64,000 nt of DNA. Origin: an uncultured Chloroflexia bacterium (GTDB taxonomy: Bacteria > Chloroflexota > Limnocylindria > Limnocylindrales > CSP1-4). Below the pieces are notes generated by a model that saw only the letters and a list, made by a program, of their open reading frames with translations, was not told the origin of the DNA and did no database searches. This document shows, piece after piece, positions 53,755 through 58,949 of the stretch (position 1 is its first letter; each line of letters starts with the position of its first letter). The stretch spans positions 1,056,001 through 1,120,000 of the forward strand of contig OY970218.1 of NCBI GenBank assembly GCA_963713975.1, read 5' to 3'. The position numbers were made by a program, and so were the translations under genes.

Positions 53755-54290
53755 CAGCCGGCATCCTCCCGCTCGCGCTTGGCGAGGTACACGCCGCCGA
53801 TCACGGCGGCCAGGAGCAGGACGCTCACCACCTCGAACGGCAGCGTGTAGTCGCTGAACAGGGTCGTCGCCAGCTCCGTCGTGTCGGTCCAGATCCGGGC
53901 CCCCGCCTCGGGCCAGTCCGTGGCCACGATGCTGAGGATCACGAGGACGGCGAGCACCGCGGACGCGATCGCCGCCGGAAGGGCCTGCGTCTGGAACACC
54001 AGCTCCCGGGGCGCCGCCTTGGTCTGGGTGAGCATGATCGCGAACAGGACCAGGACGCTGATCGCGCCGATGTACACCAGGACCTGCGCGGCGGCGACCA
54101 CCGGTGATCCCGCGATCACGTAGAGCCCGGCCAGGGCGGCGAAGCAGATGATCATCGCCAGGCCCGACCGGATGATGTCGCGCATCAGGACGACCAGGAG
54201 GGCGGACCCGAGCATGACGGCCGCGAAGCCCATGAACAGCAGGTCGTCCCACCCGATCCCGAGCAGCGGGATCGTCTCAGGCAGCGTCAC
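53754..54290 (-). CDS. nuoJ: NADH-quinone oxidoreductase subunit J
   Basis: QVLVYIGAISVL and YTLPFEVVSVLLLAA motifs. Confidence 0.95.
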   Translation of the reverse strand: MTLPETIPLLGIGWDDLLFMGFAAVMLGSALLVVLMRDIIRSGLAMIICFAALAGLYVIAGSPVVAAAQVLVYIGAISVLVLFAIMLTQTKAAPRELVFQTQALPAAIASAVLAVLVILSIVATDWPEAGARIWTDTTELATTLFSDYTLPFEVVSVLLLAAVIGGVYLAKREREDAG

Positions 54291-56947
54291 GCGTCCCTCT
54301 CAGCGTTCGGGGCGGAGACGGCGTTTCCGGACCCTTGGTGGTGTCCGTTGCCGTTGCCGTTCCCGTGTCCGATCGCAAGCGAGGCCGGCAGGACGGGGAG
54401 CAGCCGGGACTCGTCGAGGATGCGGCCCTCGGCCCGTGCACGCTCCGCCCAGTCGCGCTCGCGGCGGATGTAGCTCATCTCCGTCTCACGCTCGATCCCG
54501 GCCAGCGCGAGGAGGTCGATCGACGGCTCCTCGCGGGACGTGTGGCTGAGCTCGAACTGGTCGCTGTCGCGGACGGCATCGTAGGGGCAGGCGTCGACGC
54601 AGATGCCGCACAGGATGCAGCGGCTCTCGTCGACCTCGTACTTCTGGAGGACGCGCGGCTTGGGCATCAGCGCACCGGTCGGGCACGTCTCCGCGCAGCG
54701 GCCACAGGACACGCAGGGCGTGTCGTTGAGGCTCATGTCCAACGGCGTCGTGACCAGAGTGTCGAAGCCGATGCGCATGAAGTCGTAGCAGGCGGCCCCC
54801 ACGACCTCGGCGCACACGTTGGCGCAGCGGCCGCAGTCGATGCACCGGGCGGGCTCGCGCAGGATGAAGGCGTGGGAATCGTCCCGGACGTAGTCGTGGT
54901 TGACGCCGGTGAACCGGTTCTCCGTCACGGACCGGTAGCCGGCGCCGGAGTGGAAGGTCTTCTCGAGCGTCCGAAGGGTCGTGCCGTACTCGATGCCCAG
55001 GCGGCGCAGGTCGCAGAAGCCGATCGCCTCGCATGTGCACTGGAGGCAGCGGGTCGACTCGGCCACGGCCTCGTCCCGCGTGTACGGGATCTCGTACTCG
55101 ATGTAGCTCGCGTTGCGGATCTCGGCCTCGAGGCCCTTGAGGCGGTAGCGCGACTCCTTGATCTCGCCGGTGAAGGGCACGATCGAGAGGAACTCGGGCT
55201 GCGGCTCCGCGAGCGTCTGGCGGGTCCGGATGGCAGCCAGGTCGTTGCCTCGGAGGTAGGCGTCCACCGCGTAGGCCGCTCGCCGCCCCTCGGCGATGGC
55301 CTGGACGACCGTCGCCGCGCCGATCCGCACGTCACCCGCTCCGAACACGCCGGGACGCCCGGTCTCGAACGTGACGGCGTCCGCCTGGAGGCGGCGGTTC
55401 CGGGTGGCCGTCAGGCCGTCGTTGCCGGGACCGAACCAGGCAAGGTCGGGGCCCTGGCCGATGGCGAGCAGGACGCGGTCGCAGGGGATGGTGAACTCGG
55501 TGCCGGCGGCCGGCTCCGGGCGGCGGCGGCCGGATGCGTCGGGCTCGCCGAGCTGCATCCGGATGAACTCGATCCCGACGGCCTTGCCGGTCTTCTCGTC
55601 AGTGACGACGCGCGTCGGACCGGCCTGGAAGATGGTGGTGACACCCTCCTCGATGGCCTCGTGGACCTCGCTCGCGGCCGGCATGTCCTTCATGTCGCGG
55701 CGGTAGACGAGCGTGACCTCGCCGGCGCCCTGGCGAACCGACGTCCGGACGCAGTCCATCGCCGTGAAGCCGCCGCCCACGACGACGACGCGGGTGCCCT
55801 CGTGGCCGGGGTACGGCAGGCCCAGCGTGGCGGTGCGCAGGTACTCCAGGCCGTCGATGACGCCGTCGGCGTCCTCGTTCGGGATGCCAAGCTTGTTCGT
55901 GTCGTAACAGCCGATGGCGACCACGACGCTGTCGAAGCCCTGGTGCTGGAGGTCGTCGAGCGTGAAGTCCCGGCCCAGCTCCATGTTGCAGCGCATCTTG
56001 CCGCCGAGCCGGGTGACCGACTCGTACTCGGCCTCGAGCACCTCCACCTTGGGCAGCCGGTACTGTGGGATGCCGTAGCGGAGCATGCCGCCGGGGGCCG
56101 CGTCGCGCTCGAAGATCGTCACACCGTGCCCGGCGAGGAGCAGGTAGAACGCCGCGCTCATGCCGGCGGGCCCGGAGCCGATGACCGCGGCCCGGCGCCC
56201 GGACGGCGCCTGCTTGTCGAACGGCAGCGGCGGGTCGACGTCATCATCGAGCATCGCCTTGAGCACCTGGTCGCCGGCATAGCGGTGGCTGTCGCGGATG
56301 GCGATGGCCTCGTCCACCTCGTCCCGCCGGCAGTGCTCCTCGCAGGGTGCCGGGCAGACCCGGCCGAGGATGCTGGGGAAGGGGATCGTGCGCTTGAAGA
56401 TGCGCACCGACTCCCGCCAGTTGGCCTCCGCGTTGGCCTTGAGGAAGCCGGGGATGTCGATGTGGCTGGGGCACTTGTTCTGGCAGGGCGGCAGGCAGTA
56501 GGCGTTGTGGTCCGAGAAGATCAACTCGAGGTTGGTCCGCCGGATCCGGCGCAGGTCGTCGGTCTGGGTCCGGACGACCATGTCCGGCTCGGCTGCGCGC
56601 GAGCACGAGATCGGCGGCTGCTCCTCGCCCTCGACCTCGACCACGCACATGCGGCAGGCGCCGAACCCCGGCAGCTTGGGCTCGTAGCACAGGGTGGGGA
56701 TCTCGATCCCGTTGTCGCGACAGACCTCGAGGATCGTCTGCCCCTCGAAGCCCTCGACGACGCGTCCGTCCACCTCGATCCGGATCCCCGGCGTGCTCTG
56801 CGGGCGCTGCGGCGACTGCGTGGTGAGCAGACGCTCCGCGAGCGAGTCGTCGCGCGGCGTGATGGTGTCGTAGATGAGCGGCGAGTCGGGGCGGACCTCG
56901 CGGGGTCGGTCGAGCGGGCCCTCGGGGCGCGTGATCAGGTCGGCCAT
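54287..56947 (-). CDS. 886-aa Fe-S flavoprotein: NuoG-like [2Fe-2S] domain, GltD/NfnB-like FAD/NADPH module, 2x[4Fe-4S] domain, C-terminal half of NuoI (StnC-like fusion)
   Basis: IPTLC...[61 protein letters not shown], then [22 protein letters not shown]. Confidence 0.85.
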   Translation of the reverse strand: [886 protein letters not shown]

Positions 56948-58287: not shown

Positions 58288-58949
58288 CAGCTCGTGCGCC
58301 CCCCGAAGCCGAGGGAGGTGTCCAGCGCAGCCACGAAGGCGCTCTCGCCGGCCCGGTGTGCCTCACCCGCCGCGGCGATCGGCGTCATCGCGGGCGGCTC
58401 GAACCGGAGGTGGCCGTAGGAGGAGGCGGTGCCGTAGATCATGGCGTACCAGGCCCCGGTGATCCGCGAGATGTGCCTGAGCGCGGCCACGGGCAGGTAG
58501 CCGTACACCGCCTGCGTCTCCTCGAGGATGGCCAGCAGCAGCTTCGGGTCGTAGTCGCGGGCCTCGAGGATGGCGTCCAGCGGCGCCAGGTCGATCTGGT
58601 CGAACCGTGCGTAGGCCGGGTCGGCGACCGGTCGGCCGGATCGCCGGAGCGCGGACTCCTCGCGCCGCTCGCCGTACGTCTCCGAGGGACCCCAGTGCAC
58701 GTGGAAGCGCCCCTTGGTGTCCACGCCGCCCATGTCGATGCACTCGATGGGGCACGCCTGGGCGCACTGGAAGCACGTCTCGCACTTGAGCGTGCCGTAC
58801 TCGTCGTAGAGGAGCTGCAGGCGGCCCCGGAACTTGGGTGCCACGTCGGCGCGCTGCTCCGGCCACATGATCGTGGCCTTGGGCTGGAAGAACCGGCGCA
58901 GGGTGAGACCCATGCCGCGGACCAGACCGATGCCGGGGATGAAACTCAT
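58287..58949 (-). CDS. Fusion of the N-terminal half of NuoI with the N-terminal helical domain of NuoE
   Basis: GMGLTLRRFF..ATIMWPE...FRGR...KCETCFQCAQACP (one ferredoxin motif), then LLAILEETQAVYGYLP...YGTASSY..LRFEP with no [2Fe-2S] Cys. Confidence 0.8.
   Translation of the reverse strand: MSFIPGIGLVRGMGLTLRRFFQPKATIMWPEQRADVAPKFRGRLQLLYDEYGTLKCETCFQCAQACPIECIDMGGVDTKGRFHVHWGPSETYGERREESALRRSGRPVADPAYARFDQIDLAPLDAILEARDYDPKLLLAILEETQAVYGYLPVAALRHISRITGAWYAMIYGTASSYGHLRFEPPAMTPIAAAGEAHRAGESAFVAALDTSLGFGGRTS

What the first reader, a model, noticed from the sequence alone, without database searches (positions are those of the whole stretch)
54287..58949. Complex I with a split NuoI: a three-gene electron-input cassette is inserted inside nuoI and fused to both halves
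Seen: the order is nuoH, [NuoI-N + NuoE-N], nuoF-like, [NuoG/GltD-like + NuoI-C], nuoJ. The gene at 58287-58949 has the NuoI N-terminus and only one CxxCxxCxxxCP motif (CETCFQCAQACP). The large gene has a complete ferredoxin pair plus an extra, unpaired motif at ~54480-54660 that reads like the NuoI C-terminus ([39 protein letters not shown]; canonical YDID..RCI.CG.C.EACP.DAI....FE....R). The genes are tightly coupled (TGATG/GTGA overlaps), and the window contains no intact nuoI. Established: in 2x[4Fe-4S] domains each cluster takes three Cys from one motif and the fourth from the other. Inference: N6a/N6b would be assembled between two polypeptides, covalently tying the input module to the Q-module. 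I am not aware of this architecture having been described.
Basis: partly seen in the sequence, partly recalled or inferred. Interest (0 to 1): 0.92.

Follow-up and report, generated by a model that had tools for sequence, protein, structure and literature searches.

The report
Complex I with split NuoI subunit
This bacterium encodes respiratory complex I with one core iron-sulfur subunit (NuoI) cut into two halves, each fused to a piece of a borrowed NADPH/NADH-oxidising flavoprotein module, an architecture shared by its whole class and by cultured Ktedonobacteria.

Summary
On the minus strand the window encodes nuoA-B-C-D-H, then [NuoI N-half::NuoE N-domain] (220 aa), a NuoF-like protein (446 aa), [2Fe-2S/GltD-like/HydA-type ferredoxin::NuoI C-half] (886 aa), then nuoJ-K-L-M-N, joined by TGATG/GTGA overlaps.

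The NuoI model TIGR01971 hits the two proteins as complementary halves, positions 1-65 and 71-114 of 121. Nothing in the single-contig 3.62-Mb genome reaches that model's cut-off.

- The isolated C-terminal motif scores best against NuoI models, not generic ferredoxins.
- No intact nuoI was found elsewhere in the genome.
- The fusions recur in 190 of 201 genomes of the class, named Limnocylindria in relatives' records. They also recur, as a second isoform beside a canonical complex I, in Ktedonobacteria including cultured Thermogemmatispora and Ktedonobacter.

The inserted cassette is closest to Stn/Nso/NfnABC transhydrogenase modules, but it lacks their bifurcation-specific parts.

Each polypeptide carries an odd number of CxxCxxCxxxC(P) motifs (1 and 3), all conserved. 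A 2x[4Fe-4S] domain shared between the two chains is therefore the most economical reading. This is inferred, not shown: complex modelling gave only weak support.

NADPH is the likely donor, through invariant GxGxxA and YRR motifs. I found no description in print.

The parts
62838..63293 (-). nuoA
   Evidence: PF00507, 3.8e-30
62098..62964 (-). nuoB (ORF as listed; the true start is probably further in)
   Evidence: PF01058, 9.2e-27 on the 200-aa C-terminal part. The [14 protein letters not shown] and GCPP motifs are visible in the translation.
61547..62095 (-). nuoC
   Evidence: PF00329, 2.4e-37
60311..61543 (-). nuoD
   Evidence: PF00346, 2.8e-82
58957..60300 (-). nuoH
   Evidence: PF00146, 2.9e-107; NF004741 326 bits
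58287..58949 (-). IN_EN: 220-aa fusion of the NuoI N-terminal half and the NuoE N-terminal domain
58719..58916 (-). NuoI N-half (residues 12-77), matching TIGR01971 positions 1-65 of 121
   Evidence: 48.4 bits. hhalign to a canonical NuoI alignment gives probability 99.7 over canonical columns 3-94. Translation.
58749..58784 (-). The only CxxCxxCxxxCP motif of IN_EN (residues 56-67)
   Evidence: The motif is present in 98 of 98 distinct loci; C56, C59, C62, C66 and P67 are invariant in the 46 rows of alignment A3.
58308..58577 (-). NuoE/StnA-like N-terminal helical domain (residues 125-214), with no Cys
   Evidence: PF01257 profile positions 2-93 of 145. PDB hits are 9bov_C, 8oh5_A and NfnC 9n5u_C. 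Cys positions.
56947..58287 (-). NuoF/StnB-like flavoprotein core (446 aa). It lacks the N- and C-terminal extra cluster domains of HydB/StnB.
   Evidence: PF01512 and PF10589. Best PDB hits are HydB 8a6t_B, NfnB 9n5u_B and 9bov_B, covering only about 113-527 of 584. Motifs.
54287..56947 (-). BIG: 886-aa StnC/NsoC-like protein (2Fe-2S, GltD-like FAD/NADPH domain, FeS motifs) ending in the NuoI C-half
56561..56785 (-). NuoG/HydA-type [2Fe-2S] domain (residues 55-129)
   Evidence: PF13510, 5.4e-20. C87, C98, C101 and C115 are invariant in 37 sequences.
55244..56497 (-). GltD-like FAD/NADPH domain with its N-terminal FeS region (residues 151-568)
   Evidence: PF14691 and PF07992; TIGR01318 321.9 bits. 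Invariant residues are G257/G259/G262, G391-G393 and Y415-R416-R417.
55013..55048 (-). CxxCxCx5C motif (residues 634-645), a hallmark of GltD-into-NuoG fusions
   Evidence: All four Cys are invariant. The motif is named for Nso/Stn in passages of PMC7483475.
54668..54865 (-). HydA/HoxU/NuoG-type ferredoxin-like domain holding motifs b and c (residues 695-760)
   Evidence: PF22117. FeFe_hydrog_A6 positions 117-210 and HoxU positions 124-211. CpI 131-210 aligns to BIG 685-765.
54524..54655 (-). NuoI C-half (residues 765-808), matching TIGR01971 positions 71-114 of 121 and including motif d at 54584-54619
   Evidence: C777, C780, C783, C787 and P788 are invariant in 37 sequences.
53754..54290 (-). 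nuoJ
   Evidence: PF00499, 9.1e-33
53422..53754 (-). nuoK
   Evidence: PF00420, 3e-24
51349..53409 (-). nuoL
   Evidence: PF00361, PF00662 and PF01010
49796..51352 (-). nuoM
   Evidence: PF00361
48322..49845 (-). nuoN (start uncertain)
   Evidence: PF00361

Best explanation
This is the organism's only respiratory complex I. It has an unconventional electron-input arm. The usual NuoE-F-G module is absent. In its place, between the two halves of nuoI, sits an Stn/Nso/NfnABC-type three-gene module, trimmed as follows:
- The NuoE-like part keeps only its helical N-domain, without a [2Fe-2S] site.
- The NuoF-like part keeps only its flavin/N3 core.
- The large GltD/NuoG-like part has lost the formate-dehydrogenase-like C-terminal domain.

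The NuoI N-half is the region that in canonical complex I carries the first Cys motif. It is the N-terminus of the NuoE-like protein. The NuoI C-half is the C-terminus of the large flavoprotein, directly after its HydA-type ferredoxin domain.

Inferred mechanism: the two halves fold together into one 2x[4Fe-4S] NuoI domain. Each cluster takes three Cys from one chain and the fourth from the other. The path would then run from FAD (NADPH site of the GltD-like domain), and possibly from the flavin of the NuoF-like protein, through the FeS chain of the large subunit, into N6a/N6b, then to N2 on NuoB and to quinone.

The double fusion would tether the input module to the Q-module, a job normally done by the large C-terminal domain of NuoG, which is missing here.

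What is shown: gene content, complementary homology, conservation, and the absence of an intact nuoI. What is inferred: trans-assembly of the clusters, NADPH as donor, and proton pumping.
For: Complementary NuoI half-hits:
- TIGR01971 positions 1-65 in IN_EN and 71-114 in BIG.
- hhalign of 12 canonical Chloroflexota NuoI sequences against the IN alignment gives probability 99.7 over canonical columns 3-94.

No intact nuoI:
- 0 of 36 matches reach the cut-off in the one-contig genome.
- 0 of 3 other Limnocylindria genomes reach it, against 2 of 2 Ktedonobacteria genomes.
- The only other NuoD/NuoH-like locus in the genome is a group-4 [NiFe]-hydrogenase-like cluster. Its ferredoxin is fused to a NuoB-like protein and lacks the NuoI N-terminal region.
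- The three other NuoF-like loci are HoxEFUYH-like, NuoEF plus Fdh-like, and NuoE plus NuoF::GltD.

Motif arithmetic:
- IN_EN has 1 motif and BIG has 3. The two BIG motifs b and c are homologous to the complete HydA/HoxU pair. One half-site is therefore left over on each chain.

Conservation:
- The IN motif is intact in 98 of 98 distinct loci.
- BIG's C-terminus was within reach in 77 of those loci. All three motifs lie within the matched segment in 75 of the 77. The exceptions are L078, with a frameshift, and L128, with a partial match in which motif d is still present.
- All 16 Cys are invariant in the alignments.

Distribution:
- Relatives: 40 of 41 genomes.
- Class: 190 of 201 genomes.

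Synteny:
- nuoC/D-H-[IN_EN]-[F]-[BIG] in 20 of 20 loci, followed by nuoJ in 18 of 20. L027, L028 and L031 show the same.

Cassette identity:
- BIG residues 55-787 align to 9bov_A 4-699 and to 8oh5_C (StnC). NfnA 9n5u_A is also a strong hit.
- The F-like protein matches HydB, NfnB and StnB.
- The E-like domain matches 9bov_C, StnA and NfnC.
- The HxxxCxxxCxxxCP and CxxCxCx5C motifs described for Nso/Stn are invariant (passages of PMC7483475).

NADPH site:
- The GGGFTA stretch (a GxGxxA motif) and YRR are invariant or nearly invariant. Kremp et al. propose that GxGxxA binds NADP(H), and isolated StnC oxidises NADPH (passages).

Modelling of IN (112 aa) with the BIG C-terminus (165 aa) and four 4Fe-4S clusters gave WEAK support:
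- ipSAE 0.43 (runs 0.43, 0.43, 0.47); best of 3 controls 0.00.
- The mark was reached by 58 of 80 solved complexes and 2 of 110 mismatched pairs. At 0.60 or under, it was reached by only 7 of those 80 solved complexes and by both mismatches that passed.
- The runs agree in at least 80% of contacts, and the partner's pLDDT is 66-71.
- Halves of a split gene can pass through likeness to solved NuoI structures.
Against: - No experiment or confident structure shows the shared clusters. The complex score is weak.
- AlphaFold2 of the BIG C-terminus alone gave mean pLDDT 38. In the full-length BIG model the whole FeS-rich stretch 636-831 is below pLDDT 50. Neither model says which motifs pair.
- hhalign aligns BIG motifs c and d to the first and second motifs of canonical NuoI (probability 99.5, canonical columns 48-128). 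The c-to-d spacing is 21 residues, which is ferredoxin-like by my own knowledge. A different pairing is therefore possible.
- The NuoF-like protein departs from canonical NuoF at the NADESEPG-type stretch in all 16 members aligned. In this lineage and families f2 and f4 the second Cys of the N3 motif is replaced by Thr, Ser or Ala. The NADH branch may be altered or inactive.
- The completeness estimate is 92%, although the genome is one contig.
- TIGR01971 passes its cut-off in only 7 of the 14 control genomes, so 'below cut-off' alone is not absence. The argument rests on coverage and rank of the matches.
- In Ktedonobacteria the split genes are not next to membrane-subunit genes.
Confidence: 0.75

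Rival explanations
1. Alternative pairing. BIG motifs c and d form a self-contained 2x[4Fe-4S] ferredoxin domain, and the leftover BIG motif b pairs with the single IN motif. A cluster domain is still shared between the two chains, but it is not a reconstituted NuoI fold.
For: hhalign aligns c and d to canonical NuoI motifs 1 and 2 (probability 99.5). The c-to-d spacing is 21 residues (positions), close to clostridial ferredoxins (own knowledge).
Against: Motifs b and c match the HydA/HoxU/NuoG ferredoxin-like domain as one unit. FeFe_hydrog_A6 positions 117-210 and HoxU positions 124-211 both end just before motif d. CpI 131-210 aligns to BIG 685-765. The b-to-c spacing of 32 residues equals that of HydA (own knowledge). 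TIGR01971 coverage of the two proteins is complementary, 1-65 and 71-114, not overlapping. The flanks of motif d (YEVD..RC before it, FEL after it) are NuoI-specific.
Confidence: 0.1
2. The three inserted genes encode a soluble Stn/Nfn-like transhydrogenase that merely sits in the operon. The NuoI-like ends are remnants, and the membrane complex runs without a functional NuoI or takes electrons another way.
For: The closest solved relatives are soluble transhydrogenases. In Ktedonobacteria and family f3 the genes lie away from the membrane-subunit genes.
Against: The bifurcation-specific parts are missing. These are the NuoE [2Fe-2S] site, the HydB/StnB terminal cluster domains, and the Fdh-like domain. 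The NuoI N-terminal region before the motif is conserved, with G8, G12, T16, T26, P30, R41 and G42 invariant in 46 sequences. There is no other NuoI. Even where dispersed, the genes are always adjacent to a nuoB paralogue: 10 of 10 Ktedonobacteria loci and 7 of 7 f3 loci. Those genomes hold matching extra nuoA-C-D-H and nuoK loci.
Confidence: 0.07
3. NuoI is effectively one polypeptide. Ribosomes shift frame or read through at the TGATG overlaps, giving a single giant NuoI with an internal insertion rather than two chains.
For: Both junctions in the window are 1-nt TGATG overlaps.
Against: TGATG overlaps are ordinary translational coupling (own knowledge). The junctions differ among relatives. 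In L027, IN_EN ends at 7232 and F-like starts at 7236. In L029 and L030 the listed ORFs overlap by tens of bases. No fused ORF was seen in the loci I examined, but I did not test for fused forms systematically.
Confidence: 0.03
4. Assembly or annotation artefact: the fusions are chimeric joins in one assembly.
For: None found.
Against: The same fusions occur in 190 of 201 genomes of the class, in 20 of 20 further fetched loci, and in isolate genomes of Thermogemmatispora, Ktedonobacter, Dictyobacter and Ktedonosporobacter.
Confidence: 0.01

Closest known systems
Canonical complex I subunit NuoI (Nqo9, TYKY/NDUFS8; TIGR01971)
   Same: The N-terminal region and first CxxCxxCxxxCP motif are present, on IN_EN. 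The second motif and the following FEL-type segment are present, at the BIG C-terminus. The gene position between nuoH and nuoJ is kept. PDB NuoI/TYKY chains match both halves.
   Different: It is encoded as two halves on two proteins, about 4 kb apart. Neither half reaches the family cut-off: 48.4 bits, and 57.6 or 43.9 bits, against 113.05. Each half is fused to another domain.
Stn (Sporomusa-type Nfn, PDB 8oh5), NfnABC (9n5u), 9bov, and Nso of Thermococcus litoralis: soluble NuoE/NuoF/GltD-NuoG-like enzymes
   Same: The gene order is the same (E-like, F-like, GltD/NuoG-like). A GltD domain is inserted into a NuoG/HydA-type N-terminus. The HxxxCxxxCxxxCP and CxxCxCx5C motifs and a GxGxxA NADP(H) motif are present.
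   Different: The E-like part has no [2Fe-2S] site. The F-like part lacks the N- and C-terminal cluster domains. The large subunit lacks the formate-dehydrogenase-like domain: the alignment stops at about 699 of 1178. All three sit inside a nuo operon and are fused to NuoI halves. Electron bifurcation is therefore not expected.
Mbx-like operons in which NuoI is replaced by a GltD-related flavoprotein (Degli Esposti 2015, PMC4758237; passage seen)
   Same: A GltD-type NAD(P)H flavoprotein sits at the NuoI position of a complex-I-like gene cluster.
   Different: There NuoI is described as substituted. Here both NuoI halves are kept and fused. The cluster here is a full nuoA-N complex I, and a NuoF-like protein is also present. 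I could not see that paper's supplementary figure S2, which shows further nuo variants.
Complex I variants with non-canonical input modules: 11-subunit enzymes without NuoEFG, cyanobacterial NDH-1, and Campylobacterota NuoE/F replacements (recalled, not from a call)
   Same: A conserved Q-module and membrane arm combined with a different electron-input solution.
   Different: In those variants NuoI is intact, as far as I recall. None is reported with a GltD/NuoF double flavoprotein covalently joined to NuoI.

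Membership tests
Respiratory complex I (Nuo/NDH-1) | Genes for the eleven core subunits A, B, C, D, H, I, J, K, L, M and N in one cluster | tested here: met
   Pfam and NCBIfam hits for A, B, C, D, H, J, K, L, M and N. 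Subunit I is present only as two halves.
Respiratory complex I (Nuo/NDH-1) | NuoE-F-G input module, with NuoG's molybdopterin-like C-terminal domain | tested here: not met
   BIG matches NuoG only in the N-terminal roughly 100 residues and the ferredoxin-like domain. The other NuoF-like loci in the genome belong to Hox-, Fdh- and GltD-type clusters.
Respiratory complex I (Nuo/NDH-1) | NADH:quinone oxidoreduction coupled to proton pumping | not testable with these tools
   Needs biochemistry.
NuoI (TIGR01971) | One polypeptide scoring over the curated cut-off of 113.05 bits | tested here: not met
   48.4 bits for IN_EN. 57.6 bits for the BIG C-terminal 157 aa. No match over the cut-off in the genome.
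NuoI (TIGR01971) | Two CxxCxxCxxxCP motifs (8 Cys) for clusters N6a and N6b | tested here: inconclusive
   All 8 Cys exist and are conserved, but on two proteins. Whether they bind two shared clusters is not shown; one search gave weak support.
Stn/Nso/NfnABC (Bfu-type) transhydrogenases | NuoE-like subunit with a [2Fe-2S] cluster | tested here: not met
   Only profile positions 2-93 of 145 are matched, and there is no Cys after residue 70.
Stn/Nso/NfnABC (Bfu-type) transhydrogenases | NuoF-like subunit with a C-terminal 2x[4Fe-4S] domain and an N-terminal thioredoxin-like domain | tested here: not met
   The 446-aa protein aligns only to the core of HydB, NfnB and StnB, for example 24-435 to 160-573 of 630.
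Stn/Nso/NfnABC (Bfu-type) transhydrogenases | Large subunit with GltD inserted in a NuoG-like N-terminus, and the HxxxCxxxCxxxCP and CxxCxCx5C motifs | tested here: met
   The motifs are named in passages of PMC7483475.
Stn/Nso/NfnABC (Bfu-type) transhydrogenases | Formate-dehydrogenase-like C-terminal domain of the large subunit | tested here: not met
   The alignment to 9bov_A and 8oh5_C ends at about residue 699-701 of 1172-1178. BIG ends instead with the NuoI C-half.

The most novel reading that the evidence does not exclude
A proton-pumping complex I whose physiological partner is NADPH. It would act as an NADPH:quinone oxidoreductase or, running in reverse on the proton-motive force, as a quinol:NADP+ reductase that supplies biosynthetic NADPH to bacteria that feed electrons into the quinone pool. 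Its N6a/N6b clusters would be built at the interface of two polypeptides. That would make it the first natural 2x[4Fe-4S] ferredoxin fold split between chains in a core respiratory subunit. With a second flavin site on the NuoF-like subunit it could also connect the NADH and NADPH pools at the membrane. Ktedonobacteria would then carry two complex I isoenzymes with different nucleotide specificity.
Probability: 0.4. Interest if true: 0.9.

Novelty: new variant of a known kind. Interest (0 to 1): 0.8.

Why it matters
- **Modular evolution.** Complex I is a textbook case of modular evolution, yet its core subunits are treated as indivisible. Here a core FeS subunit is split and both halves are used as covalent anchors for a foreign flavoprotein module. 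This suggests how a new input module can be grafted on without NuoG's scaffold domain.
- **The donor question.** It bears on the open question of what feeds complex-I-like enzymes that lack NuoEFG. It points to NADPH through a GltD-type site.
- **Abundance.** The carriers include the freshwater and soil class Limnocylindria, where this appears to be the only complex I.
- **Testability.** The carriers also include cultured Ktedonobacteria (Thermogemmatispora, Ktedonobacter, Dictyobacter, Ktedonosporobacter), so biochemistry and cryo-EM are feasible.
- **Annotation.** Current annotation hides the architecture. NCBI names are 'NAD(P)H-dependent oxidoreductase subunit E' and 'FAD-dependent oxidoreductase'; a JGI name is 'formate dehydrogenase major subunit'. 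Pipelines would score these genomes as lacking NuoI.

Tried and rejected
- **AlphaFold2 of the BIG C-terminal 165 aa** with a 19-row alignment gave mean pLDDT 38. It is useless for deciding motif pairing.
- **AlphaFold2 of full-length BIG** with 37 rows gave mean pLDDT 60.6. The 2Fe-2S and GltD parts are confident, but residues 636-831 are below 50, so pairing is again undecided. I ran no fold search on either model.
- **Sequencing runs.** No run held more than 0.10 of the sampled words. Laying 4 runs at 85% likeness gave only 140-200-base pieces from relatives, and no piece bridges a junction. That is no evidence on junctions, expression or habitat.
- **Operon-wide complex modelling with NuoB/C/D/H** was not possible: one complex-prediction job, limited to 1000 residues.
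- **Rooting the BIG tree.** Only a quick, midpoint-rooted tree was obtained, and the careful search did not finish. The direction of evolution (integrated versus dispersed arrangement) is undecided.
- **Artefact reading**: considered and rejected.
- **An intact nuoI elsewhere**: considered and rejected.
- **A generic ferredoxin tail**: considered and rejected.
- **Literature.** Nine full-text searches found no description of a split NuoI or of a GltD/NuoF module fused to NuoI. Passages read with 'find' in PMC4758237, PMC5736913, PMC12361115, PMC7483475, PMC10482914 and bioRxiv 10.1101/2021.08.23.457424 found none either. The Thermogemmatispora persistence paper (10.1101/457697) was seen only in the search listing.
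- **Supplements were closed.** Supplementary fig. S2 of PMC4758237, the sheets of PMC12361115 and the transcriptome tables of 10.1101/457697 could bear on novelty and expression. Subscription-journal papers are not in the library.
- **Unpublished genomes.** The tallies include G122, G131, G190, G156, G102, G126, G183 and G145. Those include G376. No locus was fetched from any of them, and no other claim rests on them.

Full report
**What is there.** The minus strand of window 48322-63293 carries a complete complex I operon. The genes are nuoA (62838-63293), nuoB, nuoC, nuoD (60311-61543) and nuoH (58957-60300), then three unusual genes, then nuoJ (53754-54290), nuoK, nuoL, nuoM and nuoN. The three unusual genes are:
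- IN_EN, 58287-58949, 220 aa.
- A NuoF-like gene, 56947-58287, 446 aa.
- BIG, 54287-56947, 886 aa counted from the ATG that overlaps the preceding stop codon.

The junctions read TGATG, TGATG and GTGA. The nuoH stop lies 7 nt before the IN_EN start.

**The split.** IN_EN matches the NuoI model TIGR01971 only over model positions 1-65 of 121 (residues 12-77, 48.4 bits). It has a single CxxCxxCxxxCP motif (Cys 56, 59, 62, 66).
- Its second half matches the NuoE family over profile positions 2-93 of 145. It contains no Cys, so it is the helical N-domain of NuoE without the [2Fe-2S] site.
- BIG carries a NuoG/HydA-type [2Fe-2S] domain and a GltD-like FAD/NADPH domain.
- It carries a CxxCxCx5C motif and a HydA/HoxU-type ferredoxin-like domain with two motifs (b at 702-712, c at 745-755).
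- A third motif (d, 777-787) follows. Its surroundings (residues 765-808) match TIGR01971 positions 71-114.
- Taken alone, motif d plus the tail (125 aa) scores best against NuoI models. TIGR01971 gives 43.9 bits, and the top six of 52 families are NuoI. A generic ferredoxin family scores 25.7 bits.
- Profile-profile comparison with 12 intact Chloroflexota NuoI proteins gives probability 99.7 for the IN half over canonical columns 3-94. It gives probability 99.5 for the BIG C-terminus over canonical columns 48-128.

**No intact NuoI.** The genome is one contig of 3,624,741 bases, with a completeness estimate of 92%.
- TIGR01971 gave 36 matches at E <= 1 and none over the cut-off. The two halves rank first and second, and the third match scores 37.5 bits.
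- That third match lies in a separate group-4 [NiFe]-hydrogenase-like cluster about 50 kb away. There a short ferredoxin is fused to a NuoB-like protein.
- The three other NuoF-like genes belong to a HoxEFUYH-like locus, a NuoEF plus Fdh-like locus, and a NuoE plus NuoF::GltD locus.
- A caveat: the model passes its cut-off in only 7 of the 14 control genomes. However, it scores 133-140 bits on the intact NuoI of two Ktedonobacteria, so it can detect a canonical Chloroflexota NuoI.

**Not an artefact, and how widespread.**
- IN_EN matches in 40 of 41 close relatives and in 190 of 201 genomes of the class. By family that is f1 59/60, f2 7/7, f3 57/66, f4 65/66 and f5 1/1. Eight unpublished genomes are included in that tally.
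- Sources name close homologues 'Candidatus Limnocylindrales/Limnocylindria bacterium'.
- In a phylum-wide draw, 96 of 401 genomes matched at E <= 1e-12.
- Outside the class, matches spanning both domains occur in families f29, f10, f47 and f20. The remaining matches cover only the N-terminal 70-100 residues, as an ordinary NuoI would.
The best 80 include isolates: Thermogemmatispora carboxidivorans, T. tikiterensis, T. aurantia, Ktedonobacter robiniae, Dictyobacter vulcani, D. kobayashii and Ktedonosporobacter rubrisoli.
- The nearest ESM Atlas clusters are all Chloroflexota.

**Three gene arrangements.**
- **A (families f1, f2, f4): integrated, as in the window.** The order nuoC/D-H-[IN_EN]-[F]-[BIG] holds in 20 of 20 fetched loci, followed by nuoJ in 18 of 20. 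L125 is cut by its contig end, and in L129 none was found within 2.3 kb. L027, L028 and L031 show the same order.
- **B (family f3): nuoB-nuoD-[IN_EN]-[F]-[BIG]**, away from the other nuo genes. It holds in 7 of 7 loci, and in L025.
- **C (Ktedonobacteria): nuoB-[IN_EN]-[F]-[BIG]**. It holds in 10 of 10 loci, and in L026, L029 and L030.
- The Ktedonobacteria genomes also hold a canonical operon with an intact NuoI.
- They hold a separate nuoA-nuoC-x-nuoD-nuoH locus of the Limnocylindria type and a second nuoK elsewhere.
- So Ktedonobacteria appear to have two complex I isoforms. In contrast, 0 of 3 other Limnocylindria genomes tested had an intact NuoI.
- A quick, midpoint-rooted tree of BIG separates (f3 + Ktedonobacteria) from (f4 + f1/f2) with SH-aLRT 100.

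**What the cassette is.**
- BIG residues 55-787 align to chains of 9bov and 8oh5 (StnC), and NfnA of 9n5u is also a strong hit. The alignments stop at about residue 700 of about 1175, before the formate-dehydrogenase-like domain.
- The F-like protein matches the core of HydB, NfnB and StnB, without their terminal cluster domains.
- The E-like domain matches their small subunits.
- Kremp et al. describe two motifs as marks of GltD integration into a NuoG-like protein, and a GxGxxA motif as proposed to bind NADP(H). They also report NADPH oxidation by isolated StnC (passages of PMC7483475). BIG has all of these, invariant in 37 sequences.
- The module is therefore Stn/Nso-like but lacks every part linked to electron bifurcation.

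**How it most likely works.** Each chain carries an odd number of ferredoxin-type motifs, 1 and 3.
- All 16 Cys are conserved. The IN motif is intact in 98 of 98 loci.
- In 75 of the 77 loci where BIG's C-terminus is in reach, all three BIG motifs lie within the matched segment. Motif d is also present in one of the two exceptions.
- In 2x[4Fe-4S] folds each cluster takes three Cys from one motif and the fourth from the other (textbook knowledge). One cluster-binding domain must therefore be shared between the chains, whichever BIG motif pairs with IN.
- Homology says that b and c form the HydA-type pair and that d is the missing NuoI half.
- I therefore infer that N6a and N6b are formed by IN plus d. 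They would link BIG's FeS chain to N2 of NuoB. The two fusions would replace the scaffold role of NuoG's missing C-terminal domain.
- Complex modelling supports an interface only weakly: ipSAE 0.43, best of 3 controls 0.00 (full calibration counts in the For line). Likeness to solved NuoI structures may explain the pass.

**Electron donor.** NADPH is the likely donor, at the GltD-like FAD site.
- The F-like subunit keeps the GRGGAG loop, GEE, PPYP and PTxxNN motifs. It departs from canonical NuoF at the NADESEPG-type stretch in all 16 members aligned.
- In f1, f2 and f4 (9 of 9 aligned, including the window) the second Cys of the N3 motif is Thr, Ser or Ala. It is Cys in f3 and Ktedonobacteria (7 of 7).
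- The role of the F-like subunit is therefore uncertain.

**Rivals.**
- An alternative pairing (c with d, b with IN) is suggested but disfavoured by the HydA/HoxU domain boundaries.
- A soluble enzyme is disfavoured by the constant nuoB adjacency and the absence of any other NuoI.
- Read-through into one polypeptide has no support.
- An assembly artefact is excluded.

**Novelty.** The nine full-text searches and six papers listed under Tried and rejected gave no description of a split NuoI or of this fusion. The nearest statement is that a GltD-related flavoprotein substitutes for NuoI in Mbx-like operons (PMC4758237, passage). Supplements were closed and subscription journals are not covered. 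I rate it a new variant of a known kind, complex I, with high interest because cultured carriers make it testable.

Noticed in passing
window 63401-63985 (-), running towards the window end; also L025:11331-12419: A PF02636 (Methyltransf_28) SAM-dependent methyltransferase gene lies directly upstream of nuoA in the window. Another lies just downstream of BIG in an f3 locus. From recall, PF02636 is the family of the eukaryotic complex I assembly factor NDUFAF7. This may be a bacterial complex-I-linked arginine methyltransferase.
   Followed up: partly
window 56947-58287 (F-like), residues about 349-356: The N3 cluster motif reads CGK-S-IPC in the window. It is CGK[T/S/A]xPC in families f1, f2 and f4, but CG[KI]CxPC in f3 and Ktedonobacteria. 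Loss of the second Cys suggests a [3Fe-4S] cluster or a lost cluster in the lineages where this is the only complex I.
   Followed up: partly
G000:C1:1164449-1172658 (outside the window; L118): A group-4 [NiFe]-hydrogenase-like membrane cluster. It has an antiporter-like subunit, a NuoH-like subunit, a NuoC/D-like large subunit with a NiFeSe_Hases match, and a ferredoxin::NuoB-like fusion.
   Followed up: partly
G000:C1:778446-782188 (L119): A NuoE-like gene followed by a 1086-aa NuoF::GltD fusion protein. This is a second way in which the genome joins NuoF-type and GltD-type flavoproteins.
   Followed up: no
L144 (Thermogemmatispora carboxidivorans), L145, L146; G586:C1:4765047; G585:C1:5925017: The Ktedonobacteria second complex I appears to be scattered over at least three loci. 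These are nuoA-C-(107-aa ORF)-D-H, nuoB-[IN_EN]-[F]-[BIG], and a second nuoK elsewhere. I did not check whether a second set of nuoJ/L/M/N accompanies that nuoK.
   Followed up: partly
L124, L127, L128, L130 (family f4): A gap of 1.4-1.9 kb, probably an extra gene, lies between BIG and nuoJ in several f4 loci. Its content was not examined.
   Followed up: no
window 58957-60300 (nuoH): NuoH is 447 aa, and its Pfam match comes in two stretches. Against the 336-aa f4 NuoH the match skips residues about 314-385. This suggests a lineage-specific insertion.
   Followed up: no
window 54287-54420 (BIG C-terminal tail): After the NuoI C-half, BIG continues for about 80 residues and ends in a Gly/Asn/His-rich tail ([11 protein letters not shown]...). 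The tails differ by lineage: Ktedonobacteria end in ...RPLPAR.IRE and f4 in ...ILEMSDRERPTR.
   Followed up: no
L027:6384-7232 (family f4 IN_EN): The f4 version of IN_EN is longer (282 aa). It keeps part of the NuoE thioredoxin-like domain with a CxCxxC stretch, but the second Cys pair is missing. It looks like an intermediate in the loss of the N1a site.
   Followed up: no
L078 (a Ktedonobacteria MAG): BIG's reading frame breaks just before motif d in this one assembly. It is either a sequencing error or a pseudogene.
   Followed up: no
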